Origin: Candidatus Nanoarchaeia archaeon
Lineage (GTDB): Archaea; Nanobdellota; Nanobdellia; WJKC01
Reading direction: 5' to 3'
Assembly (NCBI GenBank): GCA_041653515.1
Contig: JBAZFG010000002.1
Span: forward strand, 125,632-189,631
DNA length: 64,000 bases
The notes below the pieces were generated by a model, which worked only from the letters and a program-made list of their open reading frames with translations, was not told where the DNA came from and made no database searches. The translations under genes were made by a program, and so were the position numbers. The first letter of the stretch is position 1, and each line of letters begins with the position of its first letter. Below, piece after piece: positions 1 to 42,958 of the stretch.

Positions 1-198
1 AAATATAACTGCGGCAAGCTAATCAGACCATTCATAAAAAAACACAAAAAGGAAGGGGTTAAAAGATTATTGTATAAAAAGTCATTTATAAGTTTTGAAT
101 CATTAAAAAAAGAACCAATTACTTATATGGGCTTTTTATTTATGAAATCTCTGGAGTTTACTGCGTGGTGCTTTGGTATCCTAAGAAGCTTTTTCTGA
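1..198 (+). CDS. 3' end of an ORF entering from upstream of the window (65 codons, no recognisable domain)
   Basis: Frame 1 is open from base 1 to TGA at 196-198. It overlaps the convergent radical SAM gene by 18 nt, as most convergent pairs here do. Confidence 0.25.
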   Translation, partial: KYNCGKLIRPFIKKHKKEGVKRLLYKKSFISFESLKKEPITYMGFLFMKSLEFTAWCFGILRSFF

Positions 199-9228: not shown

Positions 9229-10662
9229 ATGAATGATAATTACTCATCAATGTTTGGCTCTGACAATAATTTTAAGGCCTTTAGTGTGTCGCAGGACATG
9301 TTCCCCTTGACTGTAAACGAGTCAGTTATAAAAACCGCGGTTGATAAGGGTGCGAGTGAGAACAAGTGGGTTCTTGCTTTTGTTATTGGAACAAAGCCGT
9401 GCTTTTACAAGTTTTATGGCTCAATAATAGCTGCCAAGCAAATGGGTATACCTTACATTGTTATTAATGCTAATCAGCATTATGATGATAATCTTACTTA
9501 TGGTATTAAGGAGTTTGTTATTGATGTTGCCTGTAATCTTAATATTCGCGGCGGCTTGCTACAGAAATCTGTTGAGCTAATGCTGAAATTTAATTGGTTA
9601 TCAGATTATTTTAATAAAATAAACCCTAAAGCTAAAGTTGTTCCTGTTGTGCTTGGTGATACAATATTAACTAGTATTGTGCCTGCAGCCTGGATGTTTT
9701 CAAGGAATGAAAAAGCAATACAAAATGAGGCTGGTCTTAGGAGTATGGCGCCATCAGTTTTGAGAGCTAAGAATTTTGATGTTAAGGATTTTTATGAAAA
9801 ACAAGTGACTTGTGATTGGTTCCTATTGAGAAACGAGCCTTTCCCTGAGCAATGGGATACTTTTGTCTCAGCTGCTGGTTGCGAGTATCATTTTACTCCG
9901 TTGGAGCTTAACAAACAACACTTAATAAGAGAAGGTTATCCTGAGGAAAATATATTTGTTACTGGTGGCGTTGTTGTTGACGCTCTTAATTTGAAGTTAA
10001 ATGAAAAACCAACTAAAAGTGTTTTTGATATTTACCCGCAACTTAATGATGGTGACTGGATTCGTATGGATGTTCATCGCAGGGAGAATCTCACGCCATC
10101 AAGGTTTAAGGCTATTATTGGTTCAATTAAAGGTTTGTTAGATAATGGTTTTAAAGTTAATTTTGTTGAGATGAACGCGACTAAATTTGCTATTGATAAA
10201 TATAATTTTAGAAAAACAATTGATGGCCTGAAAATGAATAAGAATTTTTTAATGACTGATGTCTGGCCTGAGTACGCTAATGTTGTTGAGTTTTATAAGT
10301 CAAAGAATTGTTTGACTGCTTTTACTGATAGTGGTGGGGTTCAGGAGGAAATGAATTTATTGGGAAAGCCTTGTTTGACTTGTCGTTTTAACACTGACCG
10401 ACCTGAGACTGTTTTTGATGCCAAGACTAACTTGTTGGTGCCCCCAATTAGCAGTGATTTTATTTTTAATTCAATTAAACATCTGAATGATTCTGGCTTA
10501 TTAAGTAATCTATCAAAAGGCAAGCCAATATATGGCGCTGGTGTTGGTAATAAATTTATGAGCGTCCTTGATGATTTAATGAAGAATAATAAGCGGTTGT
10601 TTACTTGGTCTCATCAGTTCTTGGGTTTTGGTAATGATGATGATGACGCTGATTTTCTTTAA
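9229..10662 (+). CDS. UDP-N-acetylglucosamine 2-epimerase family protein (long form with N- and C-terminal extensions)
   Basis: Family motifs GTKPCFYKF (GTRPE-like), HRRENL and DSGGVQEE. Confidence 0.75.
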   Translation: MNDNYSSMFGSDNNFKAFSVSQDMFPLTVNESVIKTAVDKGASENKWVLAFVIGTKPCFYKFYGSIIAAKQMGIPYIVINANQHYDDNLTYGIKEFVIDVACNLNIRGGLLQKSVELMLKFNWLSDYFNKINPKAKVVPVVLGDTILTSIVPAAWMFSRNEKAIQNEAGLRSMAPSVLRAKNFDVKDFYEKQVTCDWFLLRNEPFPEQWDTFVSAAGCEYHFTPLELNKQHLIREGYPEENIFVTGGVVVDALNLKLNEKPTKSVFDIYPQLNDGDWIRMDVHRRENLTPSRFKAIIGSIKGLLDNGFKVNFVEMNATKFAIDKYNFRKTIDGLKMNKNFLMTDVWPEYANVVEFYKSKNCLTAFTDSGGVQEEMNLLGKPCLTCRFNTDRPETVFDAKTNLLVPPISSDFIFNSIKHLNDSGLLSNLSKGKPIYGAGVGNKFMSVLDDLMKNNKRLFTWSHQFLGFGNDDDDADFL

Positions 10663-11789
10663 ATTAAAGTTTTGAATATATTTTCTAGTAGTGGCGTGAC
10701 TTTCTTGGTTGAGTATTGTTTGGCGTATTTTTTTATTCCTTGTTTATTTTCTTTTAGCATCTTGTTGATTTTATTTGCCCAGTCGATTGATTTGTAAGGT
10801 TCGGCCAGGTCGCCGTTTTCTTTGTTGATTAATTCATTCATTGGCCTGACATTGCTGGCTATTACTGGTTTGCCTAATGCCCATGACTCGAGTATTATTA
10901 TGCCAAATCCTTCGACTGTGCTTGGGTTGACTACGAATTTTGATTCATTTATTATCCTTAATTTATGCTCGTGACTAACTCGGCCAGTGAATAATACGCT
11001 GCTGCTAACCCCTAATCGTCTGGCTAGTGCCATCCATTGTTTTTTCATTGGTCCGTCACCAACTATTATGAATTTGGTTTTCGGGTTCTTGCCAAGCACT
11101 GATGGCATTGCTTTGATGATTGTGTCAACGTTCTTGTAAAAGACATGCCTACCAACATAACAAAATTGGTTCTTCTCTTCAGTTCTTGGCGTCTTGTAAT
11201 CAGTTAAGTCTATCATGCAGGGCACAACTCTTATTGGTCGCTTAACGCCTGCTTTTATCAAGTCCTCTTTACTGGCGTTGCTGATAGTGTGAATCATTGC
11301 TGGCCTGATTTTTAGTATTATTTTTTCCATTAATGGCCCGATTATACTGAGCCCTTTGCTGACTCCGCGCTGACCACTCCAATTATTCCAGAAACTGCCT
11401 TGAGAGTAAACATCAAAGATGCTGATAACATGGGGTATTTTTAAGCAATAGGATACTGCGTGACCACTTAATGCTGGCGCGTAAGTGTTGGAGTGAATGA
11501 TATCAGAATCCTTAGCTATCTTTAATCCTTTTTTGAATGATTTAATGATGAATGAAGCATTGTTCATTAAACTCATATTCAAGTGGCCTTTGTAATCAAT
11601 TGGTTTGCCGACCCGATGGATTTTAACCCCGTTTAATTCTTCATAGCATTTAGTGCCTTTAAGTCGCTGAGTAATAACATTAACTTCATGGCCTCGTTTG
11701 GCTAATTCTTTAGCGTACTGGAAGAACAAGTACTCGCCGCCGCCGTAGATTGCTGGCGGGTATAATTGACAGAACTGGGTTATTTTCAT
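10659..11789 (-). CDS. GT4 (GT-B fold) glycosyltransferase, intact copy of the 7288-8443 pseudogene
   Basis: C-terminal EGFGIIILESWALGKPVIAS (E-x7-E region). N-terminal YPPAIYGGGEY, typical of GT4. Confidence 0.8.
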   Translation of the reverse strand: MKITQFCQLYPPAIYGGGEYLFFQYAKELAKRGHEVNVITQRLKGTKCYEELNGVKIHRVGKPIDYKGHLNMSLMNNASFIIKSFKKGLKIAKDSDIIHSNTYAPALSGHAVSYCLKIPHVISIFDVYSQGSFWNNWSGQRGVSKGLSIIGPLMEKIILKIRPAMIHTISNASKEDLIKAGVKRPIRVVPCMIDLTDYKTPRTEEKNQFCYVGRHVFYKNVDTIIKAMPSVLGKNPKTKFIIVGDGPMKKQWMALARRLGVSSSVLFTGRVSHEHKLRIINESKFVVNPSTVEGFGIIILESWALGKPVIASNVRPMNELINKENGDLAEPYKSIDWANKINKMLKENKQGIKKYAKQYSTKKVTPLLENIFKTLI

Positions 11790-11825
11790 AAGAGGAATGA
11801 AACTAAGATGGTTTAATAAAATTAA

Positions 11826-12827
11826 CTAAATATTAATTATTTCATAGCCTTTGTCATTGAATTCGAATTCAATTTCATTAGCACCTTCTTTTTTTAGCGC
11901 GTTGCTGATATTGTTTTTAGTGTCTTCTTTGCAGGCCCATATCATGCAGCCCCCTCCGCCTGCGCCGCAGAAACGAGCACCAATTGCACCGTTGTCACGC
12001 GCTATTTTGTCTAGTAATTGCATTCTTTTTGTTGTAACACTTGGATTAAGTTTAGTTTTGAACTCCCAGTCCTTGGTGATTAATTCAGCGAATTGGTTAA
12101 TATCTTCATTTATTAGTGCATCCCTTAGTTCAATAGCAATTGCTTTGGTGTCATCAAGGTTCTTGACAGCGAATTCATTATCTTGCTCATACTTGTCTGT
12201 GTGACCTTGAAGCACTTGGCTTACATGCGGCTTGCCTGTGTACGCTAGTATCATGTTGTCATTAAGGTATTTTTTGAATGATGAGCTAATATTTAGTTTA
12301 CTTACTTTAACATTAGCTCCACCAAGGAATTCTATTTGATTAAACCCACCAAAAACACTTGTGTACTGGTCTTGCCTGCCACCAATATTCTTTAAGTCTT
12401 CTCGTTCAATAAGGAAGCCCATTTCAGCTATTTCATGGTCACTTAATGTTATATTCATTAATCCTTTTAGTGCTCCTATCACGCTGGTGCTTAGTGAGGC
12501 GCTTGCGCCTAAGCCTGATTTTGGTGGTATGTCGCTTCTGACAAAAACGTCAATACCATGGTTTGGTTTTAATCGTTTGATTATTGCTTTAATTAAATCA
12601 AGCTCAGTATCATATGTTAAGTCTTCAATTGAGTTTCTTTCGACAATTGTGTTGTAATCGTTTGAGATGATTTTAATTATACTATCATTGCGCTTGCAAG
12701 CGACTGTTCTAACAAATTGGTTTATTGCTGTATTAATAACAAAACCACCATGTTCGGTTGAGTAAGGTTCAATGTCACTTCCACCCCCACCAAAATCAAT
12801 TCGTACTGGTGCTTTGCAAACAATCAT
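11826..12827 (-). CDS. GHMP-family sugar kinase (HddA / heptose- or hexose-1-kinase-like)
   Basis: GHMP motif PPKSGLGASASL and C-terminal GAGGGG. Sits among nucleotidyltransferase genes. Confidence 0.8.
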   Translation of the reverse strand: MIVCKAPVRIDFGGGGSDIEPYSTEHGGFVINTAINQFVRTVACKRNDSIIKIISNDYNTIVERNSIEDLTYDTELDLIKAIIKRLKPNHGIDVFVRSDIPPKSGLGASASLSTSVIGALKGLMNITLSDHEIAEMGFLIEREDLKNIGGRQDQYTSVFGGFNQIEFLGGANVKVSKLNISSSFKKYLNDNMILAYTGKPHVSQVLQGHTDKYEQDNEFAVKNLDDTKAIAIELRDALINEDINQFAELITKDWEFKTKLNPSVTTKRMQLLDKIARDNGAIGARFCGAGGGGCMIWACKEDTKNNISNALKKEGANEIEFEFNDKGYEIINI

Positions 12828-12862
12828 TATTATAATATTTTAAATATAAACCTTAATAAAAC

Positions 12863-14770
12863 TTGTGTAGTTTAAGTTGTTTAATGAGGCGGGAGCATTT
12901 ATTATTATTGCTAATTTTGTTGCTTGGCGCTGGCTTGCGTTTGTATTCGTTGCGCAATGAATACTTCACTGGTAATGACGCGTTCATTCATTATAGTGTT
13001 ATCAGGCAGGCCTTGGTTGATGGCAACTTAGTTACTTATGAGCTTAGTTATGGTAATCCTGTTATTCTTGAGCCGTTGGGCTTTTATTTAGTGACACTTA
13101 TCCCATCATTTGTTCTTGGGCTTGACATAGCTTTCCTGTTAATGCCTGTGTTGTCTGGCGTGCTGTGCCTGCTGGTTGCTTATTACTTGTTAAGGGATTT
13201 GTTTGGCGAGCGAGCGGCTTTGATTGCAGTGCTGTTATTATCCTTGTCAATGGCTCATATTTACCGCACGAGCGCTAACACTTATCGGGGTGATGGTTTC
13301 TTCCTGACTGCTTTCTTGTTAACGCTTTATTATTTCAATAAGTCACTTAAGGCATCAGTTAAGTATTCAGTAGTTACTGGCTTGTTAATGACTCTTTGCG
13401 CTTCCTTGTGGAATGGTTATCCATTAGGCGTGATTGTTATTATCAGTGGTTTGATAATTAATTCAACTCTTAAGTTCTTGAAGAATGATTTTGCTAAAAA
13501 GGATTTGACTAATATTTTTGCTTTATTAGTGACTTATTATTTCACTGAGTTAATTCTTATTTTGACTGGCGTTACTAAGCGTTTGTTTTTCACGAGCAAT
13601 AACGCTGTTCACGCGGTCATTACTTTTGCGCCTTTGTTTATTGGGGTGATTTATTATTTCACTAAGCGCGTTAAGAAGTCAAGTGTTCTTGGCGTGCTGG
13701 CGGTTGTTGGGGTAGTCTTGTTGTTGTTGAATATTAATACAGTTTCATCGTTAGTGGCTCAGTCATTGTTTGAGAATACTTTGTTCTATGAAGTTGGTGT
13801 TAGTGAATTATTGCCGCCAACTTTTGATTTGTTGAGCGCGATGCTATCATGGTCTCTTTTCCTGATGTGGCCTGGCTTGTTGTTATTAGTGTTGCTAATC
13901 CTGAAGAAGCGTGACGCGCGCCATATTACTTTTCTTGTTTGGTCAGTTATAACAATTTACTTGATGCTTAATTACTCGCGTTATAATTTCATTGTATCAG
14001 TCAGCGCCGCTGCCTTGTCCGCACTGTTCATTAATTATCTTTATTTAAAGGCAGAGCAGTATCGTAAGAACGCTGGTCTTGTGCTGGTCTTAGTTCTTGT
14101 CCTGCTTTATGTGTTTGTTATTCCTTTAACAGGGTCTGTCACTAATTTGTTTAATAATCTTAACAGTGTTAGTCCGCGCGTGAATGCAGAGTGGGCTGAT
14201 GCCTTGACTTGGATGAGAGATAATCTTGAGCCTGACTTAACTGTTACTTGGTGGGACCATGGCTCTTGGGTTCAGTATTTTGCTGGTTTTCCCACAATTG
14301 CTGATAGTGTTACTGGTCAGGATATTGGCCGGATTACTCGAGTGGCTCAATTCTTGATGACTGCTAAGAATGATACTTTTAGTGACCTTGGCGCTAAGTA
14401 CTTAGTCTTGGGGGCTGATGACGTTCTTTATTCTAATGCAATTGTTAGTATTGCTGATGTTAGGGGTTTTGAGATGTATGGGCTTGACAGTGGTTATTTC
14501 CAATCAAATGATGATGAGTTGTATTTTATTAGCGGCGACCTTGTGCTCGCGCCTCGTTTCGTGTTCTTTGCTAATCAGTCAATTCCGTTGATAGAGTCTA
14601 ATGGCACTGGTTGTTTGATGATTAATTATCTTGAGCCAAGGCCTTATTTATTATTCCTTAATGATTATGCTTGCAATACTAATTATGCTCAATTAATGTT
14701 TGGTCTGGGCTTGCCTGGTTTTGAATTATTGTATCAGAATGATTATGTAGTTGTTTATAGGATTGAATGA
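12863..14770 (+). CDS. Short AglB/STT3-like oligosaccharyltransferase paralogue (variant WWDHG motif)
   Basis: Thirteen or so TM segments followed by TVTWWDHGSWVQYFAG (WWDYG-type motif). First-loop acidic motif GNDAFIHY. The likely true start is the ATG at 12884. Confidence 0.65.
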   Translation: MCSLSCLMRREHLLLLLILLLGAGLRLYSLRNEYFTGNDAFIHYSVIRQALVDGNLVTYELSYGNPVILEPLGFYLVTLIPSFVLGLDIAFLLMPVLSGVLCLLVAYYLLRDLFGERAALIAVLLLSLSMAHIYRTSANTYRGDGFFLTAFLLTLYYFNKSLKASVKYSVVTGLLMTLCASLWNGYPLGVIVIISGLIINSTLKFLKNDFAKKDLTNIFALLVTYYFTELILILTGVTKRLFFTSNNAVHAVITFAPLFIGVIYYFTKRVKKSSVLGVLAVVGVVLLLLNINTVSSLVAQSLFENTLFYEVGVSELLPPTFDLLSAMLSWSLFLMWPGLLLLVLLILKKRDARHITFLVWSVITIYLMLNYSRYNFIVSVSAAALSALFINYLYLKAEQYRKNAGLVLVLVLVLLYVFVIPLTGSVTNLFNNLNSVSPRVNAEWADALTWMRDNLEPDLTVTWWDHGSWVQYFAGFPTIADSVTGQDIGRITRVAQFLMTAKNDTFSDLGAKYLVLGADDVLYSNAIVSIADVRGFEMYGLDSGYFQSNDDELYFISGDLVLAPRFVFFANQSIPLIESNGTGCLMINYLEPRPYLLFLNDYACNTNYAQLMFGLGLPGFELLYQNDYVVVYRIE

Positions 14771-16073
14771 GCTGGACGTATTCTTCTAATGCTTTGTCTG
14801 CTATTAGTCTTTCTTCTGCTTCAATGAATACTTTAACTGTGTGCCTAGTCTGGCTTGGTCTTAATAATACGCTTACTTCATCTGGCCTTGTGAATTTGAT
14901 GCCGTCCATTGTTAGTGCTTGAGTGTTTTCTTGCATTAACCGGTTGATTATTTTGGCCGCGACTTCTTCTTTCTCTTGATGAGTGCTAAACTCAACTTCT
15001 TCTTTGATGACAACTACTTTTGGTAGTTCATCTATTAACTCGCTTAGTTTTTTGCCTGTTTCTTTTATTATTCGCGCCATCATGAGAACGCTTAACGCGC
15101 CATCGCTGAAGGGGTAGTATTCATTCCAGTAGAAATGACTGCTTTCCTCGCCGCCGAATAACCCTTTTTGTTTGACTAATTCTTTTTCAATGAAAGTGTG
15201 ACCAACCTTGCACCAAACCATTGTTCCGCCCATTGGCTTGACTATTTTTGTTTCAATAACGCTTGAAACGCTTGGCGGAGCCACTATTACTCCTTTCTTT
15301 TTTTTGAGTATTTCTTTTGTGAATAACATTGTCATCATGTTACCGTCTATTACTCGGCCTTTATCATCAACGAACACGCTGCGGTCTCCATCCCCATCAA
15401 GTCCTGCGCCAAAGCTGGCGTTTTCACTCAATACTCTTTCCTGTAATTCATGTAAGTTCTTTTCTGATGGCTCTGGACTTTTCCCACCAAAGTCTGATTT
15501 TGGCTCATTGTTTAGGACTGTTGCGTCTAATAATTTATTGAACACACTATTAGTTAATGCGCCAGTACTGCCATTAAGGCAGTCAATAACGCATTTAACT
15601 TCTATTCGGCCAAACTCTTTTTCGAGGAATCGGGCGTAATCATTAGTGGCAGTAATATCTTGTTTTACTGAAGCGCTCTCTACTTTGTTGAAGTTATAAT
15701 TATTGAATAATTCCCTGACTTCTTTTAGTTCTTCTGGCGCAATGCCTGAGCCATCCCTCATTATTATTTTAAAGCCGTTATACTCTTTTGGTAAGTGTGA
15801 GGCTGTGATGAACACGCCAAAATCATAAGTATTTAGTATTTTATAATAGCACACTGGTCCAGGCATAAAACCGCCTTTTGTTACGTTAATGCCTGATGAG
15901 CGTAATCCTTCAATTAAGTGCTCGCCTAGTGCTGGGCTTGATTCCCTGCAATCCCACCCAATAAAACAAGTGCCTTTTAGTTTGGTGCCGAGCGCTCGGC
16001 CAAGAATGAACGACTGGTGCGTCGTGATGCCCCTCCCCCTGACGTCGTACGCCATAAAAATCTCCTCCTTCAA
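14679..16073 (-). CDS. Phosphomannomutase / phosphoglucomutase
   Basis: Active-site TASHLP and the metal-binding loop GLDGDGDR. The 3' end overlaps the convergent gene by 92 nt. Confidence 0.85.
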   Translation of the reverse strand: MKEEIFMAYDVRGRGITTHQSFILGRALGTKLKGTCFIGWDCRESSPALGEHLIEGLRSSGINVTKGGFMPGPVCYYKILNTYDFGVFITASHLPKEYNGFKIIMRDGSGIAPEELKEVRELFNNYNFNKVESASVKQDITATNDYARFLEKEFGRIEVKCVIDCLNGSTGALTNSVFNKLLDATVLNNEPKSDFGGKSPEPSEKNLHELQERVLSENASFGAGLDGDGDRSVFVDDKGRVIDGNMMTMLFTKEILKKKKGVIVAPPSVSSVIETKIVKPMGGTMVWCKVGHTFIEKELVKQKGLFGGEESSHFYWNEYYPFSDGALSVLMMARIIKETGKKLSELIDELPKVVVIKEEVEFSTHQEKEEVAAKIINRLMQENTQALTMDGIKFTRPDEVSVLLRPSQTRHTVKVFIEAEERLIADKALEEYVQLIQSYKQLHNHSDTIIQNQASPDQTLIEHN

Positions 16074-16078
16074 TTAGT

Positions 16079-17236
16079 TCACACCCAGTACTTACTGTTT
16101 TCCAGTTCCTCCTTGTCTTCATTGTATACAATGTTGCCGTCAATAATGCCGCTTGCTTTTAGGAATGGCCAGACTGTTGAGCCTTTAATTAAGTTTGAGT
16201 TCTCTTCTATAACGCTTTTATAACCAATCACGCAGAAGTCATTGATCTTCACGTTGTTTTTAATTACTGTTGTGCCGTCAATGATGCTGTTGTTAATTAT
16301 TGATTTCTGGCCTATGTGAGCGTTATCAAATATCACGCTTCCTTTGATGATTGAGCCCTCGCCTACTGTGACATCATGCATTAAGTGAGTGTTTGGGCCA
16401 ATAACGCAGTTCTTGCCAATAATGCACCCTTCTTCTATGATGACTTTGCCTTTGATTTCAGTGCCTTCTTTTATTACTGTGTTCTCGTGAATTATTGAGT
16501 TTTTTAGTTCGCTCATAACTTTATTGTTTAATTCAATGTAACCTCTTGGTGTTCCAATATCTGCCCAGTCACCTTTAAATTTGAAGCCGTGTAATGTGTC
16601 TTTTTCACAGAAGTACTGCCACATACTGCCAATAGTGTCAATGTTTTGGTTTTCATTAATGTATTCTGGTAATTTTTTATCAACCCATCCTTTGCTAAGA
16701 CCATATATTAGTGTGCTACCCAGTTGTGAGCGCGCTTCATCTGCTCTTGGTTTCTCTTGGAATGATGTTATAATATTGTTTTTTAGTTCTGCGACGCCAA
16801 ATAATTCAACCATGTATTTGTGGGGTAATTCGTATAATGCTATTGTTGCGCTGCTTGGTTTTATTGATTTACTAAACTCTTTTAAGTCAAGTCCATTAAT
16901 GTAATTATCCGCGCCTAGTATTATGAAATCATCACTGCCAACTTTTCCTACAGCATAATTAAGTCCTCCAACACTGCCTAGTTTGCCTTCTTCTTGGTTC
17001 TCAATTATTATGTTAACTTTCTTGTTAATTAGGAAGTCATTAATTTTTAGTTGTTTGTTATTAATGCTGACATAAATTTCATTAATTCCTGCTTCGTTTA
17101 GTTTGTTGATTAAGTGAATGATATTTGGCACGCCTGCTATTGGTAGTAAGCATTTAGGTGTTCTTAGTGTTAGTGGGTGTAATCTTGTTCCGCCGCCGCC
17201 TGCTAGTATTAGTGCTTTCACTGAACGCCACCCCAT
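16079..17236 (-). CDS. Bifunctional-type sugar-1-phosphate nucleotidyltransferase with C-terminal left-handed beta-helix domain (GlmU/archaeal ST0452-like)
   Basis: KALILAGGGGTRLHPLT at the N-terminus. The C-terminal half has hexapeptide-like repeats (IGKNCVIGPN, VGEGSIIKGSVI). The likely real start is GTG at 17221, forming a GTGA overlap with the upstream stop. Confidence 0.8.
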   Translation of the reverse strand: MGWRSVKALILAGGGGTRLHPLTLRTPKCLLPIAGVPNIIHLINKLNEAGINEIYVSINNKQLKINDFLINKKVNIIIENQEEGKLGSVGGLNYAVGKVGSDDFIILGADNYINGLDLKEFSKSIKPSSATIALYELPHKYMVELFGVAELKNNIITSFQEKPRADEARSQLGSTLIYGLSKGWVDKKLPEYINENQNIDTIGSMWQYFCEKDTLHGFKFKGDWADIGTPRGYIELNNKVMSELKNSIIHENTVIKEGTEIKGKVIIEEGCIIGKNCVIGPNTHLMHDVTVGEGSIIKGSVIFDNAHIGQKSIINNSIIDGTTVIKNNVKINDFCVIGYKSVIEENSNLIKGSTVWPFLKASGIIDGNIVYNEDKEELENSKYWV

Positions 17237-18051
17237 TCCCTGATAGCCCTCTCGTAACGCTCTGTGTTATCGGTTGGGAGCCATTGGCCTTCGAATGGGT
17301 AACCGTTTAGTTTGCCTTTTTCCTGTATTTTTGGGAAGATGTCATATTCCATTGAGGTAGGGCCTGTTTCATTAATCATGCTGATTATTGATGGGTCAAG
17401 CACGTACACGCCTGCGTTGATTAGTTTACTTACTGGTTCAGTTGGTTTCTCAATGAAATTAGTTATTACTGGGCCTTTTAGTAATGCGACGCCAAAGCTT
17501 GATGGGTCATCAACAGTTGTTAGTGCGATTGTTGCTTGACCTCCATTCTTTCGGTGGAAGTCAAATAAGCTTTCAATATCAATGTTAACTAAGTTGTCGC
17601 CGTTAAGCATTATGAATGGTTCGTTTAGCCATTCTTTGGCTAACCTGAGACAACCTGCTGTTCCTAATGGTTCATCTTCCATTATATATCTTAGTTTGAC
17701 TCCGAACTTGCTGCCGTCTCCAAAGTAATCTTTTACTTTTTCGCCAAGGTACCCGACAGATAGTGTTATGTCGCGAACTTCGTGCTTCCGGAGGAGGCTT
17801 ATTGTGTGTTCGATTAATGGTCTTCCTTGAACAGGTACCATTGGCTTGGGTATTTCGTAAGTTATTGGTCTGAGGCGTGTTCCTTTGCCGCCTGCTAGTA
17901 TTAGTGCTTTTTTAGGGCTTTTTCTGTCAAGGGCTTTTCTTAGTAAAAATTCAATAGCGTGACTGCGGTTCCTAATGCGGACGCCGTCAACAAAAGCATC
18001 AATATCATTTGTAAGTGATTGGTCGACTGTTATAGTGATTCTATCACGCAT
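17218..18051 (-). CDS. Sugar-1-phosphate nucleotidyltransferase fused to an N-terminal ribbon-helix-helix (CopG-like) domain
   Basis: Residues 1-45 (RITITVDQSLTNDIDAFVDG...RNRSHAIEFLLRKAL) have a strand-helix-helix pattern. They are followed by KALILAGGKGTRLRPIT. Confidence 0.75.
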   Translation of the reverse strand: MRDRITITVDQSLTNDIDAFVDGVRIRNRSHAIEFLLRKALDRKSPKKALILAGGKGTRLRPITYEIPKPMVPVQGRPLIEHTISLLRKHEVRDITLSVGYLGEKVKDYFGDGSKFGVKLRYIMEDEPLGTAGCLRLAKEWLNEPFIMLNGDNLVNIDIESLFDFHRKNGGQATIALTTVDDPSSFGVALLKGPVITNFIEKPTEPVSKLINAGVYVLDPSIISMINETGPTSMEYDIFPKIQEKGKLNGYPFEGQWLPTDNTERYERAIREWGGVQ

Positions 18052-18074: not shown

Positions 18075-19508
18075 TTATATACATTTTGTCTTTTTGGCAT
18101 ACAATAAGCTAATTATTTTTTTAATTAACTTAGTGATAAAACCCCTATCCTGCTTGTCAAGCACTTTATAGTAAACCATGAGCGCGTAAAAGACTGCTGC
18201 TAGGCTAAATAAAAGTATTTTCATTATTGGTCCAGTATAAACATTAACCACTATTATTAGTGGCAATGCGCTGATTAATGACTTAACATAACTAACCCAA
18301 TTATGTTTGACATACTTACGCTGTGTTACACTCATTATTATCAGTGCGCTAACCATTAAACCAGTAAATATTATTGATGCGTTAAAAGCATTAATTAAAT
18401 AACTGCTTAGTGCTATGGTGATAATTACTTTTATTATTGAAATCCATAAAACTATTCTCGGCTTGCCTGTGCCATAAGTAATTGATTCATATATCTGATA
18501 AAAAGCCATTGCTGATAAGCCAATAGCCATTACTCTAAAAACACTTATCATCCCCAAGTACTCGCTGCCTAATAATAATGTTATGATAAAATTAGATGCT
18601 GAGAAAAAAATAGTTGCTATTGGCAAAGCGTAAATGAAAACATACTTCATGAACCGGCCGGTTAATTCTTTTATTTCCTCTTTTTTCTTATTAATAATGC
18701 TTGGCAGTAACGCGCTACTGATTGCGCCTGAGATTAATAAAATAAACAATCCTGCTTTGTTTGATAAGTCAAAGAAACTAAGCTCACTTGAATTAAAACC
18801 CAAGTATAAGTTCATCAAATAATTTGATAATGTCATAAAAATTGATGTGAAAAACATTGTTGTTGAGTACTTTAATAATTCTTTTCTCTCAGTAAACTCA
18901 CTGCCTTTGCTTAACTTATTGTAAATGACTGCATAAGCAAATAATACTGTTATTAAGTAACTAATGCCATAACCAATCACTGCGCCAGTGATTCCAAGAC
19001 CAATTATTATTAAGAGTAATGACGCAAACTTTGTGGCACTAAACAATAAGTCAACGTTCATGTAATGCTTCAAATTATTAAACCCTTGAAATATGTAGTA
19101 AGAAATATTCATTAATATGAAGAATGGGATAAACAACGCTGTTAATCTTAAATAACTGCCTAGTTCAGTATTGTTGTAAAAAACACCAATATAATCTGCT
19201 GCTACAAACACTGCTATAGCTGTTATTACACCAATTATTAACCTAACACTTATAATTTTCTTAACTAAACTAGCCATTTGCTCCTTATACTTCTGCATGA
19301 AATAAGGGAGCCCATGCTCTAAACCAAGAGTTGTTAGTTGGTGTGATAATGTTAGTATTGTAATTACTAAAGCGAAAGTTCCGTAATCAGTTGGGCCAAG
19401 TAATCTGGCAAGAAAGAATATTAATACCATTGATAGCACTGTGCTAACTGACTTACCTATTAAGTGCCAAGTAGCGTTCTTACCTACTTTCTTGATTACT
19501 TCTTCCAT
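18075..19508 (-). CDS. Wzx-like oligo/polysaccharide flippase (MOP superfamily)
   Basis: 477 aa, about 12-14 TM segments. The N-terminus (LARLLGPTDYGTFAL) is typical of polysaccharide biosynthesis protein / Wzx families. Confidence 0.7.
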   Translation of the reverse strand: MEEVIKKVGKNATWHLIGKSVSTVLSMVLIFFLARLLGPTDYGTFALVITILTLSHQLTTLGLEHGLPYFMQKYKEQMASLVKKIISVRLIIGVITAIAVFVAADYIGVFYNNTELGSYLRLTALFIPFFILMNISYYIFQGFNNLKHYMNVDLLFSATKFASLLLIIIGLGITGAVIGYGISYLITVLFAYAVIYNKLSKGSEFTERKELLKYSTTMFFTSIFMTLSNYLMNLYLGFNSSELSFFDLSNKAGLFILLISGAISSALLPSIINKKKEEIKELTGRFMKYVFIYALPIATIFFSASNFIITLLLGSEYLGMISVFRVMAIGLSAMAFYQIYESITYGTGKPRIVLWISIIKVIITIALSSYLINAFNASIIFTGLMVSALIIMSVTQRKYVKHNWVSYVKSLISALPLIIVVNVYTGPIMKILLFSLAAVFYALMVYYKVLDKQDRGFITKLIKKIISLLYAKKTKCI

Positions 19509-32780: not shown

Positions 32781-32820
32781 AAGACCGCCTCTTCTGTTGC
32801 TTTAGCGAAGGCGTGGTCTT
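32781..32820. terminator. Imperfect GC-containing hairpin between convergent genes
   Basis: aagaccgcct (32781-32790) pairs with aggcgtggtctt (32809-32820), leaving a 2-nt bulge. This is the only convergent junction in the window with a real spacer. Confidence 0.3.
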
Positions 32821-39035: not shown

Positions 39036-39125
39036 TTAAATTTGATGTTGGTCAGTGATGATTAAACCAACCCAGAAGTACTTATTATTCATTAGGTCTT
39101 TTAGGTTTATTTCATCTTCATTCAT
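39036..39125 (-). pseudogene. Orphan 5' fragment (29 codons) duplicated from the GT-C gene 35503-36897
   Basis: Translates to MNEDEINLKDLMNNKYFWVGLII..., against MNDNDEINLKDLVNNKYFWVGLIS in the intact gene. Its ATG overlaps the stop of the upstream gene as ATGA. It terminates after 29 codons. Confidence 0.7.
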
Positions 39126-40141
39126 ATTGTCATCCTCGCTATGATGAATGCTGCCACGCAGAATAATGATTCAATCATCATTAAGAATGGAGTGATGTAT
39201 TCTTCTCGTTTTACTAATCTCATAGCTAAGTGTGTTAGTGAGTAAGTCTTCTTGTACTTAGGTTTTAGTGTGCCATCTTTCTGTAGTTCACCAAGACTGC
39301 TGGCCTTGAATTTCTTACGAGCTTTTAATGCAAACTCAATGAACCAAGGCGCGAACGCTATTAGCGCGAACTTCTCAATATTACCAATAATGATTGACGC
39401 GCCAAACACTGTGCCAACTAAGTATGGCAGTGTGTCGCCTGGCAGGAAACTCGCTGGGTACTTGTTGAATTTAAGGAAGCCTGCAAGACAAGCAGCTGTT
39501 GTTAAAGCAAGTATTGCGCCTTCAATCGTGCCGTAAAAATATGAGTATAAGCCAGTGCCAGTGAGTAATACTAAGCCTAAGCCTGTTTCTAAACCATTCA
39601 TGCCCGCGAGCATATTAGTCGCGTTGCCGCTGAAAATAATGATTAATGGCACAATGATTAGTGGGTAAATAATACCAATATTAACTGGCCCAACAAATGG
39701 AATGCTCACTAAGCTTTGGCCAGCGTTAATAGCCATTAATGGCACAGCAGCTATTAGTGAGATAATCACTTTATGCCATTGTTTTAATCCGATCCGCGTG
39801 TCAATCTCATCCTTATTAGTTCGTTGTTCTGGTTGAATGTTAATATCATCAAGGGTTATTAGTAAGGTTATTGTTAACACGCTTGTTAGGCCGGCGAATA
39901 ATAATGTTAAATTAGTTCCTGCGTTAGTGACAAAGACTGTGATGAAAATATAAGCCATTAAAGCTGTTAGTAAACCAATTGCTATTGGTATGCCACCACT
40001 GGTCGCCATCTTAGGCTTATTTTTCTTCTGGATATCCATTGCCTTCATACCTATTTTCTCAAGGAATCGCTTCAAGTAAGGGGCTATTATTATTGTGGCC
40101 ACAAAACCAGTTATTATTGTTATGATTAATGATTCATCCAT
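39122..40141 (-). CDS. UDP-GlcNAc:dolichyl-phosphate GlcNAc-1-phosphate transferase family (MraY/WecA/AglH-type)
   Basis: NATNMLAGMNGLETG motif; about 10 TM segments; directly downstream of aglB. Confidence 0.8.
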   Translation of the reverse strand: MDESLIITIITGFVATIIIAPYLKRFLEKIGMKAMDIQKKNKPKMATSGGIPIAIGLLTALMAYIFITVFVTNAGTNLTLLFAGLTSVLTITLLITLDDINIQPEQRTNKDEIDTRIGLKQWHKVIISLIAAVPLMAINAGQSLVSIPFVGPVNIGIIYPLIIVPLIIIFSGNATNMLAGMNGLETGLGLVLLTGTGLYSYFYGTIEGAILALTTAACLAGFLKFNKYPASFLPGDTLPYLVGTVFGASIIIGNIEKFALIAFAPWFIEFALKARKKFKASSLGELQKDGTLKPKYKKTYSLTHLAMRLVKREEYITPFLMMIESLFCVAAFIIARMTI

Positions 40142-40177
40142 TAAGGAAATGTTAGGGTGATTAGTTTTTTAATTGTT

Positions 40178-40339
40178 TGCCCCCGCAGTTTGGAATAAAC
40201 TTTTTTCAATAAGCAGGGGGATCAGGAAATGCCTAAAACTGAGGGGGATGTGCCCCCGCGGTTTGGAATAAACTTTTTTCAATAAGCAGGGGGATCAGGA
40301 AATGCCTAAAACTGAGGGGGATGTGCCCCCGCGGTTTGG
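40178..40339 (-). repeat. Tandem repeat, 73-bp unit x 2.2, each unit carrying one GC-hairpin element of the dispersed family
   Basis: Units start at 40178, 40251 and 40324 (tgcccccgc[a/g]gtttgg...) and are nearly identical. The array fills the aglB-to-GPT intergenic region, starting right after the aglB stop. Confidence 0.9.
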
Positions 40340-42958
40340 TTACCAGGCAGGACTGCCGTTATCAACCCATGGCATCATTGCAGTATAATTAATGTGATAA
40401 ATATTAATGTTGGTTGGGTCGTATTGTGATATTAATCCTCTTATGTTTAGTGAGTTACTTGAGTAGACTAATTCAAAACCAGGTATTGTTTCGTTCAATA
40501 AGTATAAGTGAGTCATGAAACGATCATTTAAGTCTGATGGGATGTGAATTAAGCCTCCTTCAATGAATTCAATACAAGAGTCAATGCCGTTAGTCTCATT
40601 AAAGTAAGTGCAGCCATTACCATAATCACAAACGCAATTGTATGGGTGAAGCGTGTTACTGCCCGTAGCTAAGTTATAAACTACTGCTTGTGGCTGACCA
40701 AAAGATTGGTCTTCAGCCATTGGTATTAAAACGTTTACTATGTAACTCTCGCCTTTAGGGAATAATACACCATCAATGATTGTGTCAGCGCCAACATAAC
40801 CTGGTGAGGCTAAGTAATTGAAAACTAGTAGTGTGCTGAATTGTTCAGGATTATACAAGTTATTATCCACTTGCTGGCTGTAAGTGTAAGGTGCGTAATA
40901 ACCTGGCCTGCCACCAATATTAGCCATCTGAACATATTTTAGTATATCATCATCCATGACTAATAAATAATTAGGCCTATTGCCTGTTTCATTATTCTTG
41001 AAGTAATCAAGTGAGTCATAAACCTCTGTCATGTTAAAGCCGCTAAACATTTGGCCGCCAATAACTTCATCCCATACTACTTGGAAGTTACCCCCATCAA
41101 CTGTTGTTGCCCGCTCGCCCATGGTTTGAACCCAGTAACCATAATCCCACCAATGAGTGAATACAGCGTTAGTGTCAGTGTTATTCCTAACCCAACTCAT
41201 TGATTCGCCCCAATCATTAGTGAAGCTTGGAATCATTGTTGAAGCATCTTCAACAATAACATAGTAACTCCATATTACTAATAGTATTGCGACTGCGTAA
41301 ATAGCTGTTGAGTAAACTTTATCACTTGTTATTTTGCTGATTAAATTATTTATCCGCTCAATAGCGTAAGCAGCTAATAACACGAATATTGGGGTGCTAG
41401 CAAAGACAATTCTTATTGCGCCCCTAGTTGCAATAACACTTAAAGCAAACCATAAGATGATTATTAGTTTACTTGGCGTTAACTCACCCCACTTACTGCT
41501 CTTATGGAATTTAATGTAAAATAATATTACTGTTAAAGCCAATAATGGCAGTGTTAGTAAGTAAGTGTTCTCAAAGAATAAATTAATTGCTTCATAACCG
41601 TTTAAGTTAACGAATTTGCTAAACATGAAGAATAAGATGAACACAGTAAACATTATCACTACTGATGTGGCTTTCTTGCCAAACTTACCTAATACTTCTT
41701 GAACTAATAATGCTCCACCAATAACAAATAATGGCACAAACCATTGAAGCCTATGCCACCAGTCAACCCCGTTAGGGTCATAGAACCATGGGGCTTGGTT
41801 TTCAGTAACTGAGACGCAGAAAGCACAAGTGCCAAAAGGGTTTAGTATTGTATCAAGAGCGCCTTGTAGTTTGGCGCCAACATCAAATAATCCAGTTAAT
41901 TGCATTACTGGCAGACCAACCATTATTAATACTGCCATCATTATTACGAAATAAAAATTATCAGGCCACTTCTTGTTCTTGATTAAGTTACTGATGAATA
42001 AATCATAAACAATTTTTAATCCAAGCACTAACGCTGTGATAGTTGGTATTAAGAACATATCAATCATGATTAAACCAAAACCATTATAGCGCAGGGTCAT
42101 TGTAGCGTTCATTAATATTATTGGGATGAACCACGCAAAGTAAGTGATTACGTTTTTATTGCTTAATTTACCCATTAAAGCAAGGAATAGGAATGCTAAG
42201 CCAATGCTGAAGAATAAGAAGTTAGCCCCACCCCAAGTCAGGCTTGATAAGCCAGCTAATACGCCTGATATTAACCCGTAAATTAATGCTTGTTTAGTCT
42301 TATTTGCCCTAATTGATTTGACTAATGCATAAATCATGCTAAACCAAAAGACTGTTGCAAGCGCTTCCTTATCACTAAACCCTGCCATGGTCCTGAATAA
42401 ATATGATGGGATTAATGATAAAAACGCTGTGGCAATTAACGCTGTTTTCTTGTTGAATATTTCTTTAGTCATTAAGAAAAAGAATATCATGCTTATTACA
42501 AACGCAACAACTGGGTAAATCATTGAATAACTCATTAGTTCGCCGCCAAATAATGGGTGAAATATTGTGTATAATCCTGCAACAAAGTAAGACACTAATT
42601 GGTGCTCCTTGAAAGTGCTAAAACCTTCTGGAAAATAACGAAATGAATCCATTTCAGGCAGGGTGCCCTGCTCCACTAGTGTTTCAGTGTAGCGGTAAAA
42701 AACATACGGGTCAAGACCAAGCAATAAACCATTGTATAATGGTATGCTTAGCATCCTAACCCAAGCCCCAACTAATATAATACTAATTAATGCTGCGTAT
42801 AATATTATCTTCTTATTTTCTTTGAGGAATTTTACTGCTTCGCCAAAATTAAGTTCATCCTCATCAGTGGTTGCTGGTTTTTTCTCTTTCTTATCACTGC
42901 TAAACCAGCCTTTAATCTTTCGCCCTATCTCCCCGAAATCAATTTCTTCATCACTCAA
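40340..42958 (-). CDS. aglB: Archaeal oligosaccharyltransferase AglB (STT3 family), long form
   Basis: Canonical HWWDYGYWVQ motif, first-loop GLDPYVFYRY, about 13 TM segments and a large C-terminal domain. Confidence 0.9.
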   Translation of the reverse strand: MSDEEIDFGEIGRKIKGWFSSDKKEKKPATTDEDELNFGEAVKFLKENKKIILYAALISIILVGAWVRMLSIPLYNGLLLGLDPYVFYRYTETLVEQGTLPEMDSFRYFPEGFSTFKEHQLVSYFVAGLYTIFHPLFGGELMSYSMIYPVVAFVISMIFFFLMTKEIFNKKTALIATAFLSLIPSYLFRTMAGFSDKEALATVFWFSMIYALVKSIRANKTKQALIYGLISGVLAGLSSLTWGGANFLFFSIGLAFLFLALMGKLSNKNVITYFAWFIPIILMNATMTLRYNGFGLIMIDMFLIPTITALVLGLKIVYDLFISNLIKNKKWPDNFYFVIMMAVLIMVGLPVMQLTGLFDVGAKLQGALDTILNPFGTCAFCVSVTENQAPWFYDPNGVDWWHRLQWFVPLFVIGGALLVQEVLGKFGKKATSVVIMFTVFILFFMFSKFVNLNGYEAINLFFENTYLLTLPLLALTVILFYIKFHKSSKWGELTPSKLIIILWFALSVIATRGAIRIVFASTPIFVLLAAYAIERINNLISKITSDKVYSTAIYAVAILLVIWSYYVIVEDASTMIPSFTNDWGESMSWVRNNTDTNAVFTHWWDYGYWVQTMGERATTVDGGNFQVVWDEVIGGQMFSGFNMTEVYDSLDYFKNNETGNRPNYLLVMDDDILKYVQMANIGGRPGYYAPYTYSQQVDNNLYNPEQFSTLLVFNYLASPGYVGADTIIDGVLFPKGESYIVNVLIPMAEDQSFGQPQAVVYNLATGSNTLHPYNCVCDYGNGCTYFNETNGIDSCIEFIEGGLIHIPSDLNDRFMTHLYLLNETIPGFELVYSSNSLNIRGLISQYDPTNINIYHINYTAMMPWVDNGSPAW

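What the first reader, a model, noticed from the sequence alone, without database searches (positions are those of the whole stretch)
12863..14770. Second, short AglB/STT3 paralogue with a WWDHG variant motif inside the same cluster
Besides the canonical long AglB (40340-42958, WWDYG), a 635-aa polytopic protein carries TVTWWDHGSWVQYF after its TM bundle. It also has an acidic first-loop motif (GNDAFIHY). Two oligosaccharyltransferases in a small genome suggest two glycan or acceptor specificities. The Tyr-to-His change lies in the motif that contacts the acceptor sequon in solved AglB/PglB structures.
Basis: partly seen in the sequence, partly recalled or inferred. Interest (0 to 1): 0.5.

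Follow-up and report, generated by a model that had tools for sequence, protein, structure and literature searches.

The report
Second, short AglB oligosaccharyltransferase paralogue
This gene really does encode a second, compact copy of the enzyme that attaches sugar chains to asparagine residues of archaeal surface proteins; it belongs to a small DPANN-archaeal subfamily with some unusual active-site residues, but it is an ordinary kind of find, because extra copies with variant motifs are already known in many archaea.

Summary
ORF 12863-14770(+) is real, though the likely start is ATG 12884 (628 aa). It contains GNDAFIHY and TVTWWDHGSWVQYF.

It is a true STT3/AglB homologue:
- Pfam STT3 scores 33.7 bits against a cut-off of 24.5.
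- A profile of 12 canonical AglBs gives E 3e-58.

It belongs to a tight DPANN-only subfamily of about 13 sequences at 36-54% identity. All of them keep GND39, RT, Y-R142-G-D144, GVSE315, R373, WWDHGSW, and D519/Y523. All six loci I could read share the same setting: convergent phosphomutase, two nucleotidyltransferases, GT4s, and usually a Wzx-like flippase.

Three sites depart from the canon:
- Arg replaces the first Asp of the second DXD motif.
- His replaces Tyr in WWDYG.
- Tyr replaces the Lys of the DK motif.

R-G-D is not special to this gene. About 120 related representatives share it, including the Thermococcus litoralis orthologue of the biochemically proven Pyrococcus AglB-L. Published work already records multiple aglB copies, and functional methanogen AglBs carry WWDNG.

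Verdict: a probably functional N-oligosaccharyltransferase serving its own glycan cluster. It is a new member of a known kind, of modest interest.

The parts
12884..14770 (+). Gene for the short AglB/STT3 paralogue (628 aa from ATG 12884; the mechanical ORF starts at TTG 12863, 635 aa). Residue numbers below use the 635-aa numbering.
   Evidence: The NCBI model P0001 and all homologues start at Met8.
12839..12846 (+). TATA-like TTTAAATA in the 56-nt divergent intergenic region, about 40 nt upstream of ATG 12884. Possible archaeal promoter (inference only).
   Evidence: Sequence read. No functional test.
12971..12982 (+). First acidic motif G37-N38-D39-A40 in external loop 1. It is identical to the Gly-Asn-Asp47 motif of AfAglB-L.
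   Evidence: Invariant in 11 subfamily sequences. Aligned to AfAglB-L GND. PMC8342417.
13265..13294 (+). EL2 segment R135-T-S-A-N-T-Y141-R142-G143-D144. R135 corresponds to PglB R147 / AfAglB R154. R142 occupies the position of the first Asp of the second DXD motif. D144 occupies the position of the second acidic/His ligand.
   Evidence: hhalign against canonical AglBs. HMMER alignments to STT3A, STT3B and fungal STT3. Invariant in the subfamily. Most conserved segment of the protein (0.84).
13796..13807 (+). G312-V-S-E315, the SVSE/TIXE-type motif of external loop 5 (catalytic Glu).
   Evidence: Aligned to VTE of the long paralogue and TIAE360 of AfAglB-L. Invariant.
13973..13984 (+). Y-S-R373-Y. 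The Arg is equivalent to AfAglB-L R426 / PglB R375 / yeast R404 (lipid-phosphate binding).
   Evidence: PMC7226087.
14249..14269 (+). W463-W-D-H466-G-S468-W469, the WWDXG motif at the start of the C-terminal domain.
14417..14443 (+). D519-D-V-L-Y523-S-N-A-I527, the counterpart of the DK motif. Invariant Tyr523 aligns with the Lys of DDILKYVQM in the long paralogue.
   Evidence: hhalign. hmmsearch column table. Invariance of D519, Y523 and A526.
14679..16073 (-). Convergent phosphohexomutase gene (PGM/PMM family, closest to archaeal GlmM). Its 3' end overlaps the STT3 gene by 92 nt. It is a conserved neighbour in all six loci.
16079..18051 (-). Two sugar-1-phosphate nucleotidyltransferase genes (16079-17236 with hexapeptide domain; 17218-18051). 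Conserved neighbours.
18075..19508 (-). Wzx/Polysacc_synt-type flippase gene. Present in the same position in L001, L005 and L007, and nearby in L006.
9229..12827 (.). Upstream cluster genes: Epimerase_2 (9229-10662 +), GT4 glycosyltransferase (10659-11789 -), and GHMP sugar kinase (11826-12827 -, HddA-like but below cut-off).
39122..42958 (-). Comparator: canonical long AglB (40340-42958, 872 aa; S-D-K-E, VTE, WWDYGYW, DDILKYVQM) next to a PF00953 polyprenyl-phosphate HexNAc-1-P transferase-family gene (39122-40141).

Best explanation
The gene encodes a working, minimal AglB-type oligosaccharyltransferase (family GT66/STT3). It has 13 transmembrane helices and a roughly 200-residue external C-terminal domain.

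It is the transferase of the glycan-assembly cluster in which it sits. That cluster holds sugar-activation genes, GT4/GT2 glycosyltransferases and a Wzx-like flippase. The enzyme would take the flipped dolichol-phosphate-linked glycan and transfer it to Asn side chains of secreted or surface proteins. It would work in parallel with the canonical long AglB, which sits next to a HexNAc-1-P transferase gene and probably serves a different lipid-linked glycan.

Inferred mechanism, by homology:
- The acceptor carboxamide is held between D39 (EL1) and E315 (EL5).
- A divalent cation is held by D39, D144 and E315.
- R135, R373, and probably R142 (which replaces the usual first Asp of the second DXD motif) face the lipid phosphate.
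- W463-W464-D465 together with Y523 (in place of the usual Lys/Ile) form the pocket for the +2 Ser/Thr of the sequon.

Shown here: homology, fold, motif conservation and conserved synteny. Inferred: activity, donor, acceptor, and the roles of R142, H466 and Y523.
For: Family and fold:
- Pfam STT3 and STT3-PglB_core score above their gathering scores. All 9 members match the core domain.
- E 3e-58 against a canonical AglB profile. hhalign probability 100% over 614 columns.
- AF2 model: pLDDT 78.7, pTM 0.78, helix pattern consistent with 13 TM helices.
- Foldseek top 19 hits are all STT3/AglB/PglB, E about 1e-13 to 1e-16.

Purifying selection on the catalytic apparatus:
- Across 11 sequences at 37-54% identity, these are invariant: G37-N-D39, R135-T, Y141-R-G-D144, G312-V-S-E315, R373, W463-W469, D519 and Y523.
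- Conservation peaks in EL2 (0.84), EL1 (0.73) and the C-terminal core (0.71), against 0.52-0.57 in the TM helices.

Conserved context:
- The order STT3, convergent PMM, then two nucleotidyltransferases, with GT4s nearby, is kept in the window and in L001, L003, L005, L006 and L007. These come from Nanoarchaeia, Parvarchaeota and unclassified archaeal MAGs. A Wzx-like flippase is also present in all but L003.

The variant motifs are compatible with oligosaccharyltransferase activity:
- R-G-D is also present in P0075, the T. litoralis AglB-L. Its C-terminal domain scores 504 bits to the solved P. furiosus and P. horikoshii AglB-L domains. PfAglB-L has measured in vitro activity (PMC3703281; PMC5131992).
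- Functional methanococcal AglBs carry WWDNG.
Against: - No activity, glycan or acceptor data exist for any member of the subfamily.
- The first Asp of the second DXD motif is a direct metal ligand in AfAglB-L, PglB and Stt3. Here it is Arg.
- The Lys/Ile of the DK/MI motif is needed for activity in yeast, P. furiosus and Campylobacter enzymes. Here it is Tyr.
- In the wider R-G-D clade only 33 of 122 near-full-length representatives keep WWD. Many close relatives therefore may not recognise a sequon in the canonical way.
- Published work says extra aglB copies are not always expressed.
- I could not read model coordinates, so the geometry of R142 and Y523 is untested.
Confidence: 0.65

Rival explanations
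1. It is an STT3-fold glycosyltransferase that has left N-glycosylation. It would use the cluster's lipid-linked glycan but transfer it to another acceptor, such as a different residue, a different sequence rule, a lipid, or a growing polysaccharide (a ligase or polymerase-like role). The reshaped acceptor pocket would be H466, S468 and Y523 instead of Tyr, Tyr and Lys.
For: - The Lys to Tyr change in the DK motif and the Tyr to His change in WWDXG are fixed in the subfamily.
- Its nearest relatives outside the subfamily have WWDMG, YWDYG, FWDLG, WRDDA or xWPDG. Overall 89 of 122 R-G-D-type representatives lack WWD, yet they keep the EL1 Asp, R-G-D, the EL5 Glu and the Arg. In this clade, donor chemistry is conserved and acceptor recognition is free to change.
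- The cluster resembles a Wzx-dependent surface-polysaccharide locus. It always carries a conserved membrane protein of about 900 aa with a sub-threshold GT-C_AftD match.
Against: - Within the subfamily itself WWD is invariant and followed by an invariant HGSW. That argues for retained sequon recognition.
- The best structural matches are N-oligosaccharyltransferases by a wide margin.
- AglB genes embedded in agl clusters with a Wzx-like flippase are the normal archaeal N-glycosylation layout (established knowledge of Haloferax agl genes; from memory).
Confidence: 0.22
2. It is an N-oligosaccharyltransferase with an altered catalytic centre. The guanidinium of Arg142 takes over part or all of the role of the divalent cation in holding the lipid phosphate. 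This would parallel metal-independent GT-A enzymes that lost DXD.
For: - R142 aligns with the direct metal ligand D161 (AfAglB-L), D154 (PglB) and D166 (Stt3). The register is fixed by the conserved R-T anchor 7 residues upstream, with no indels.
- R-G-[DE] is almost universal in the clade (122 of 131).
- There is a precedent for replacing metal contacts with protein contacts in bacterial GT6 (PMC3961637, listed).
Against: - The clade includes the Thermococcales AglB-L lineage. From memory, the P. furiosus enzyme is assayed with Mn2+.
- Three carboxylates (D39, D144, E315) remain and could still bind a metal.
- No coordinates were available to test the geometry.
Confidence: 0.1
3. It is a silent or decaying paralogue with no enzymatic role.
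For: - Extra aglB copies are reported not to be constitutively expressed in some archaea (PMC5131992).
- Three canonical motif residues are replaced.
Against: - The reading frame is intact.
- The replacements are themselves invariant across sequences only 36-54% identical.
- The catalytic loops are the most conserved parts.
- Synteny is conserved in six loci.
Confidence: 0.03

Closest known systems
Archaeoglobus fulgidus AglB-L (PDB 3WAJ/3WAK/5GMY/7E9S)
   Same: - Same first motif, Gly-Asn-Asp.
- Same EL5 Glu, phosphate Arg and WWD.
- Same 13-TM architecture.
   Different: - AfAglB-L has Asp161-His-His163 where this protein has Arg142-Gly-Asp144.
- It has WWDYGHW against WWDHGSW here.
- Its DK motif is a Lys-type variant (E613...K618) against Tyr523 here.
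- It is 868 aa with extra C-terminal units, against 628 aa.
Short AglB paralogues AfAglB-S1 / AfAglB-S2 (591/593 aa; C-terminal domains 3VGP, 3VU0)
   Same: - A compact second or third AglB copy in one genome.
- The C-terminal domain is essentially the common core unit.
   Different: - Those proteins have WWDYG and a Lys-type DK variant.
- Here the C-terminal domain carries an extra beta-rich part of about 100 residues with two invariant Cys.
- I could not obtain their TM regions to compare the second DXD motif (one search returned only fragments). Orthology is not shown.
Thermococcales AglB proteins: the AglB-L lineage (T. litoralis P0075; P. furiosus AglB-L is the assayed member) and the shorter Thermococcus STT3 paralogues (P0024, P0052, P0055)
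   Same: - Same R-T-x5-[YA]-R-G-D segment in EL2.
- Same clade in a distance tree rooted on canonical D-x-E AglBs.
- Some of them also have WWDHG: P0055 has WWDHGHW and P0058 has WWDHGSW.
   Different: - Only about 20-25% identical.
- Lys is retained at the DK position (DWIKFNAI, DLINKFGAI).
- AglB-L has a C-terminal domain of about 470 residues.
- They are euryarchaeal, not DPANN.
Methanococcus AglB (WWDNG, MI motif)
   Same: A genetically proven archaeal oligosaccharyltransferase with a non-Tyr residue at position 4 of WWDXG and a non-Lys Ser/Thr pocket (PMC5131992).
   Different: It carries different substitutions (Asn and Ile against His and Tyr). It was not compared by sequence here.

Membership tests
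STT3/AglB/PglB oligosaccharyltransferases (GT66) | Significant match to the STT3 transmembrane-domain profile (PF02516) and to the STT3/PglB/AglB core domain (PF21436). | tested here: met
   PF02516 scores 33.7 bits against a gathering score of 24.5. PF21436 scores 23.4 against 23. PF21436 is matched by 9 of 9 subfamily members and PF02516 by 6 of 9. A profile of 12 canonical AglBs gives 189.6 bits, E 3e-58.
STT3/AglB/PglB oligosaccharyltransferases (GT66) | The 13-TM GT-C fold with long EL1 and EL5 loops and an external C-terminal alpha/beta core domain, closest to solved oligosaccharyltransferases. | tested here: met
   [not shown]
STT3/AglB/PglB oligosaccharyltransferases (GT66) | Catalytic Asp in EL1 (first 'DXD' motif; GND47 in AfAglB-L, D56 in PglB). 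| tested here: met
   G37-N38-D39 is invariant and aligned to AfAglB-L GND.
STT3/AglB/PglB oligosaccharyltransferases (GT66) | Second motif D-x-[D/E/H] in EL2 (metal ligands D154/D156 in PglB, D161/H163 in AfAglB, D166/E168 in Stt3). It is commonly listed as conserved. | tested here: not met
   The segment reads R142-G-D144. The first Asp is replaced by Arg and only the second ligand position is acidic. The same R-G-D occurs in the T. litoralis AglB-L orthologue and in 122 of 131 related representatives. The canonical form of this motif is therefore not universal in the family, and its absence does not exclude membership.
STT3/AglB/PglB oligosaccharyltransferases (GT66) | TIXE/SVSE motif Glu in EL5. 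| tested here: met
   G312-V-S-E315 is invariant and aligned to VTE of the long paralogue and TIAE360 of AfAglB-L.
STT3/AglB/PglB oligosaccharyltransferases (GT66) | Conserved Arg that binds the lipid (pyro)phosphate (R375 PglB, R426 AfAglB, R404 Stt3). | tested here: met
   R373 in YSRY is invariant and aligned.
STT3/AglB/PglB oligosaccharyltransferases (GT66) | WWDXG motif in the C-terminal domain. | tested here: met
   W463-W-D-H-G467 is invariant in the subfamily. Variation at position 4 is documented.
STT3/AglB/PglB oligosaccharyltransferases (GT66) | DK (DxxK) or MI (MxxI) motif supplying Lys or Ile to the +2 Ser/Thr pocket. | tested here: not met
   The aligned segment is D519-D-V-L-Y523-S-N-A-I. 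Tyr523 aligns with the Lys of DDILKYVQM in the long paralogue. Many variants of this motif are described, but I found no Tyr type described in the papers read.
STT3/AglB/PglB oligosaccharyltransferases (GT66) | Transfer of a lipid-linked glycan to Asn in N-X-S/T. | not testable with these tools
   This needs an enzyme assay or glycoproteomics.
TIGR04154 archaeo_STT3 (archaeosortase A-associated oligosaccharyltransferase) | Score above the curated cut-off of 450 bits. | tested here: not met
   The short protein scores 98 bits and the long paralogue 92.9 bits.
Protein O-mannosyltransferases / PMT_2 (GT39-like) | PMT-type fold and loop motifs, closer to Pmt than to STT3. | tested here: not met
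   [not shown]

The most novel reading that the evidence does not exclude
The short paralogue, and the wider R-G-D clade it belongs to, would be an AglB lineage with a rebuilt active site. Arg stands where the metal-binding Asp should be. In this subfamily His and Tyr stand where the sequon-pocket Tyr and Lys should be. As a result the enzyme would follow a different acceptor rule, or a different metal or phosphate chemistry, from every oligosaccharyltransferase solved so far. The cell would then run two mechanistically distinct protein-glycosylation systems. The many clade members that have lost WWD altogether would be a large, unrecognised family of STT3-derived transferases with non-sequon acceptors.
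Probability: 0.15. Interest if true: 0.6.

Novelty: new member of a known kind. Interest (0 to 1): 0.3.

Why it matters
DPANN archaea have tiny genomes and live attached to hosts, and their surfaces are predicted to be heavily N-glycosylated. An organism of this kind that keeps two oligosaccharyltransferases, each with its own conserved gene set, probably makes two different surface glycans. That is relevant to host recognition.

More generally, the survey done here shows that the textbook "second DXD motif" is not universal in AglB. A large archaeal clade, including the lineage of the well-studied Pyrococcus enzyme, has R-G-D instead. No enzyme of this type has a solved transmembrane domain. 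The gene itself, however, is already annotated as an STT3-domain protein, and multiple aglB copies with variant WWDXG motifs are in the literature.

Tried and rejected
- For a while I entertained the idea that Arg142 makes the enzyme metal-independent or not an oligosaccharyltransferase. I downgraded it when the T. litoralis AglB-L orthologue turned out to have the same R-G-D.
- I tried to fetch full-length AfAglB-S1, to see whether the structurally studied short paralogues are R-G-D type. My query was its C-terminal sequence as printed.
- The PNAS 2013 AfAglB-L paper (PMC3816453) and the JBC 2016 lipid-donor paper (PMC4900254) are not held.
- 'WWDHG' occurs in no held paper. That says little, because the key survey (Nikolayev et al. 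2020) is not held either.
- Model coordinates are not exposed by the tools. I could not measure distances around R142, H466 or Y523.
- The genome-contig scan found only 3 loci. I therefore could not test across genomes whether the short form always co-occurs with a canonical AglB. Walking along homologous contigs is blocked, because only window proteins and homologous-protein hits can be looked up.
- NCBIfam gave no equivalog-level names for the sugar-activation genes. All scored below cut-off, so the glycan composition is not inferred.
[quoted passage not shown] I kept this only as a weak lead, because the PglB/Stt3 residue equivalence is structural and was not verified here.
Full report
**1. 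The observation**

The window has an ORF at 12863-14770(+) of 635 aa starting at TTG. It contains GNDAFIHY and TVTWWDHGSWVQYF exactly as described, and translation confirmed the motif coordinates. The long paralogue at 40340-42958(-), 872 aa, has WWDYGYW.

The start needs correcting. The identical database protein (P0001, 628 aa, [quoted passage not shown], on a 191,793-bp contig) and all homologues begin at Met8. That is ATG 12884. The 56-nt divergent intergenic region has a TATA-like TTTAAATA about 40 nt upstream of that ATG, and the TTG lies between them. Only these two ORFs in the window match STT3 profiles.

**2. Family and fold**

Sequence evidence:
- Pfam STT3 scores 33.7 bits (gathering score 24.5).
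- STT3-PglB_core scores 23.4 (gathering score 23).
- PMT_2 scores 31, but this is the generic GT-C N-terminal module and the long AglB hits it as well.
- NCBIfam gives only a sub-threshold archaeo_STT3 hit, 98 bits against 450.
- The best solved relative is A. fulgidus AglB-L, at E 4e-6 for the single sequence and 3e-9 for the profile.
- Against a profile I built from 12 canonical AglBs, the protein scores 189.6 bits, E 3e-58.
- hhalign gives probability 100% over 614 columns.

Structural evidence:
- An AlphaFold2 model from a 12-sequence alignment has pLDDT 78.7 and pTM 0.78. Its helix pattern fits 13 TM helices, long EL1 and EL5 loops, and an alpha/beta C-terminal domain of about 200 residues.
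- Foldseek ranks 1-19 are all STT3, AglB or PglB, at E 1e-13 to 3e-16.

**3. The subfamily**

In 5.8 billion clustered proteins only nine close relatives were found, at 42-54% identity. The next hits scored about 60 bits. An exhaustive profile search added P0012 and three fragments with the same motifs. A scan of 185,579 species genomes found three loci: one unclassified archaeon and two Ca. Parvarchaeota. The subfamily is therefore small and DPANN-restricted.

Across 11 full-length sequences at 37-54% identity, 90 positions are invariant. They include:
- G37-N38-D39
- R135-T136
- Y141-R142-G143-D144
- G312-V-S-E315-L-L
- R373
- W463-W-D-H-G-S-W469
- D519, Y523 and A526
- C584 and C604

Conservation is highest in EL2 (0.84), EL1 (0.73) and the C-terminal core (0.71), and lowest in the TM helices (0.52-0.57). 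That is the signature of an enzyme under selection, not of a decaying copy.

**4. Motif by motif**

Published structures define the catalytic residues. In AfAglB-L the metal is bound by Asp47 of Gly-Asn-Asp and by Asp161 and His163 of Asp-His-His, with Glu360 of TIAE contributing through water (PMC8342417). The equivalents are D56, D154/D156, E319, R147 and R375 in PglB, and D47, D166/E168, R404 and K586 in yeast Stt3 (PMC7226087).

Here the following canonical residues are present:
- GND39 in EL1.
- E315 in GVSE in EL5.
- R135, equivalent to PglB R147.
- R373, equivalent to PglB R375.

The second DXD motif, however, reads R142-G-D144. The register is fixed by the R-T anchor seven residues upstream, with no indels. 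It is the same in independent alignments to STT3A, STT3B and fungal Stt3. It is also the same in the hhalign alignment to the long paralogue, where RTSANTYRGDG lies over RTMAGFSDKEA.

In the C-terminal domain, WWDHG aligns with WWDYG. The DK motif of the long paralogue, DDILKYVQM, aligns with DDVLYSNAI. An invariant Tyr523 therefore replaces the Lys. The two paralogues of this genome thus have different Ser/Thr-pocket residues. This departs from the rule proposed in PMC3703281 that paralogues in one organism share the pocket type.

**5. R-G-D is a clade character, not a peculiarity of this gene**

Among the best 150 representatives from the exhaustive search, I looked at the 131 near-full-length sequences. 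Of these, 122 have [RK]-[GAS]-[DE] at this position. In a neighbour-joining tree rooted on D-x-E AglBs they form one group. The tree is only a rough distance tree.

The group contains Thermococcus STT3 proteins of 671-786 aa. These include P0024 (WWDYGGF), P0052, and P0055 (WWDHGHW).

The group also contains P0075, the 952-aa T. litoralis protein. Its C-terminal domain scores 504 bits to the crystallised AglB-L domains of P. furiosus and P. horikoshii. Its EL2 reads R-T-F-S-G-N-A-R-G-D-G. P. furiosus AglB-L has measured in vitro oligosaccharyltransferase activity. R-G-D is therefore very probably compatible with normal N-glycosylation. That the P. furiosus protein itself has R-G-D is inferred from the orthologue and was not read directly.

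Within the R-G-D group only 33 of 122 sequences keep WWD. The largest subgroup has xWPDG and includes a Micrarchaeota protein. Many others are fully degenerate. Yet all of these keep the EL1 Asp, R-G-D, the EL5 Glu and the Arg. This pattern is the main support for the rival view that parts of this clade have changed acceptor.

**6. Context**

The gene lies in a glycan-assembly region:
- Epimerase_2 (9229-10662).
- GT4 (10659-11789).
- GHMP sugar kinase (11826-12827).
- The STT3 gene.
- A convergent phosphohexomutase (14679-16073, overlapping by 92 nt).
- Two nucleotidyltransferases (16079-18051).
- A Wzx/Polysacc_synt flippase (18075-19508).
- GT2, further GT4s, and radical-SAM genes.

The order STT3, then convergent mutase, then two nucleotidyltransferases is kept in L001, L003, L005, L006 and L007, although the STT3 proteins are only 36-49% identical. 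GT4s lie nearby in all five, a flippase in all but L003, and a membrane protein of about 900 aa in four of them.

The long AglB sits 26 kb away beside a PF00953 polyprenyl-phosphate HexNAc-1-P transferase-family gene. The two transferases thus have separate, plausible donor-synthesis neighbourhoods. This fits the idea of two pathways but does not prove it.

**7. Comparison with what is known**

More than 30 archaea are reported to have multiple aglB copies, some with variant WWDXG motifs, and not all copies are expressed. Functional methanococcal AglBs have WWDNG and an MI motif. AfAglB and PfAglB do not accept each other's lipid-linked glycans (PMC5131992). The fourth WWDXG position is known to vary in Euryarchaeota (PMC11407970). 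A. fulgidus has two short paralogues of 591 and 593 aa whose C-terminal domains are just the core unit.

A second, short AglB with WWDHG is therefore an expected kind of gene. What I did not find described in the papers I could read is the Arg-for-Asp replacement in the second DXD motif and a Tyr at the DK Lys position. The library lacks the main survey papers, so this is absence of evidence only ("WWDHG" has 0 hits).

**8. Verdict**

The gene is most likely a functional N-oligosaccharyltransferase dedicated to its own cluster's glycan (confidence about 0.65).
- A changed-acceptor STT3-fold transferase is the main rival (about 0.2).
- An Arg-assisted, metal-poor mechanism is a minority possibility (about 0.1).
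- A dead copy is unlikely.

It is a new member of a known kind, in a DPANN-specific subfamily. Interest is modest. The wider R-G-D clade, with its frequent loss of WWD, is the more interesting by-product of this work.

Noticed in passing
Not in the window: proteins P0014-P0159 (e.g. P0047, Ca. Micrarchaeota ARM1_0043): A large archaeal clade of STT3-like proteins has R-G-[D/E] instead of the second DXD motif. Only 33 of 122 keep WWD. One subgroup of 750-990 aa has EPDGF / YRGDG / TIQELQPP / AIRFNS / xWPDGSV / DSVGGQ. All keep the EL1 Asp, the EL5 Glu and the phosphate Arg.
   Followed up: partly
window 4427-7279 (-) and 1701-4430 (-): Two very large membrane proteins (950 and 909 aa) have no Pfam family apart from a sub-threshold GT-C_AftD match (22 bits), and no PDB sequence match. 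The 950-aa protein is conserved next to the short-STT3 cluster in L001, L003, L006 and L007 at 28-53% identity. It may be a further GT-C enzyme of the same pathway.
   Followed up: partly
window 35503-36897 (-), 29615-31162 (+), 33959-35506 (+): More candidate GT-C or membrane glycosyltransferases: an Alg9-like GT22 (49.5 bits), a 515-aa protein with a weak PMT match (18.7 bits), and a second 515-aa protein with no match.
   Followed up: no
window 62792-62935 (+): Rfam finds a tRNA (49.7 bits) spread over 144 nt for a 71-position model, but ARAGORN finds no tRNA in the window. This is probably an archaeal tRNA with a long intron.
   Followed up: partly
window 181-1704, 22255-25465, 32819-33880, 36946-38328: B12-binding radical-SAM, radical-SAM/SPASM and DUF362/4Fe-4S genes are interleaved with the glycosyltransferases. 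This suggests unusual sugar or glycan modifications. L007 also has a B12-radical-SAM gene beside the flippase.
   Followed up: no
window 25491-26573 (-): A GH99 / WbsX-like protein (141 bits to Glyco_hydro_99, the endo-alpha-mannosidase family) lies inside the glycosylation region.
   Followed up: no
window 14679-14770: The convergent phosphomutase gene overlaps the 3' end of the STT3 gene by 92 nt, because the mutase carries a C-terminal extension of about 25 residues. In the homologous loci L001, L003 and L006 the overlap is only 8-16 nt.
   Followed up: partly
window 14612-14614 and 14672-14674 (C584, C604): Two Cys residues in the extracellular beta-rich part of the C-terminal domain are invariant across the subfamily. 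They may form a disulfide.
   Followed up: no
P0014 and P0019 (contigs of 22,533 and 56,637 bp): Two different R-G-D-type STT3 proteins with degenerate WWD motifs (YWDYG and WRDDA) lie on the same contigs. Other archaea therefore carry several paralogues of this clade side by side.
   Followed up: no
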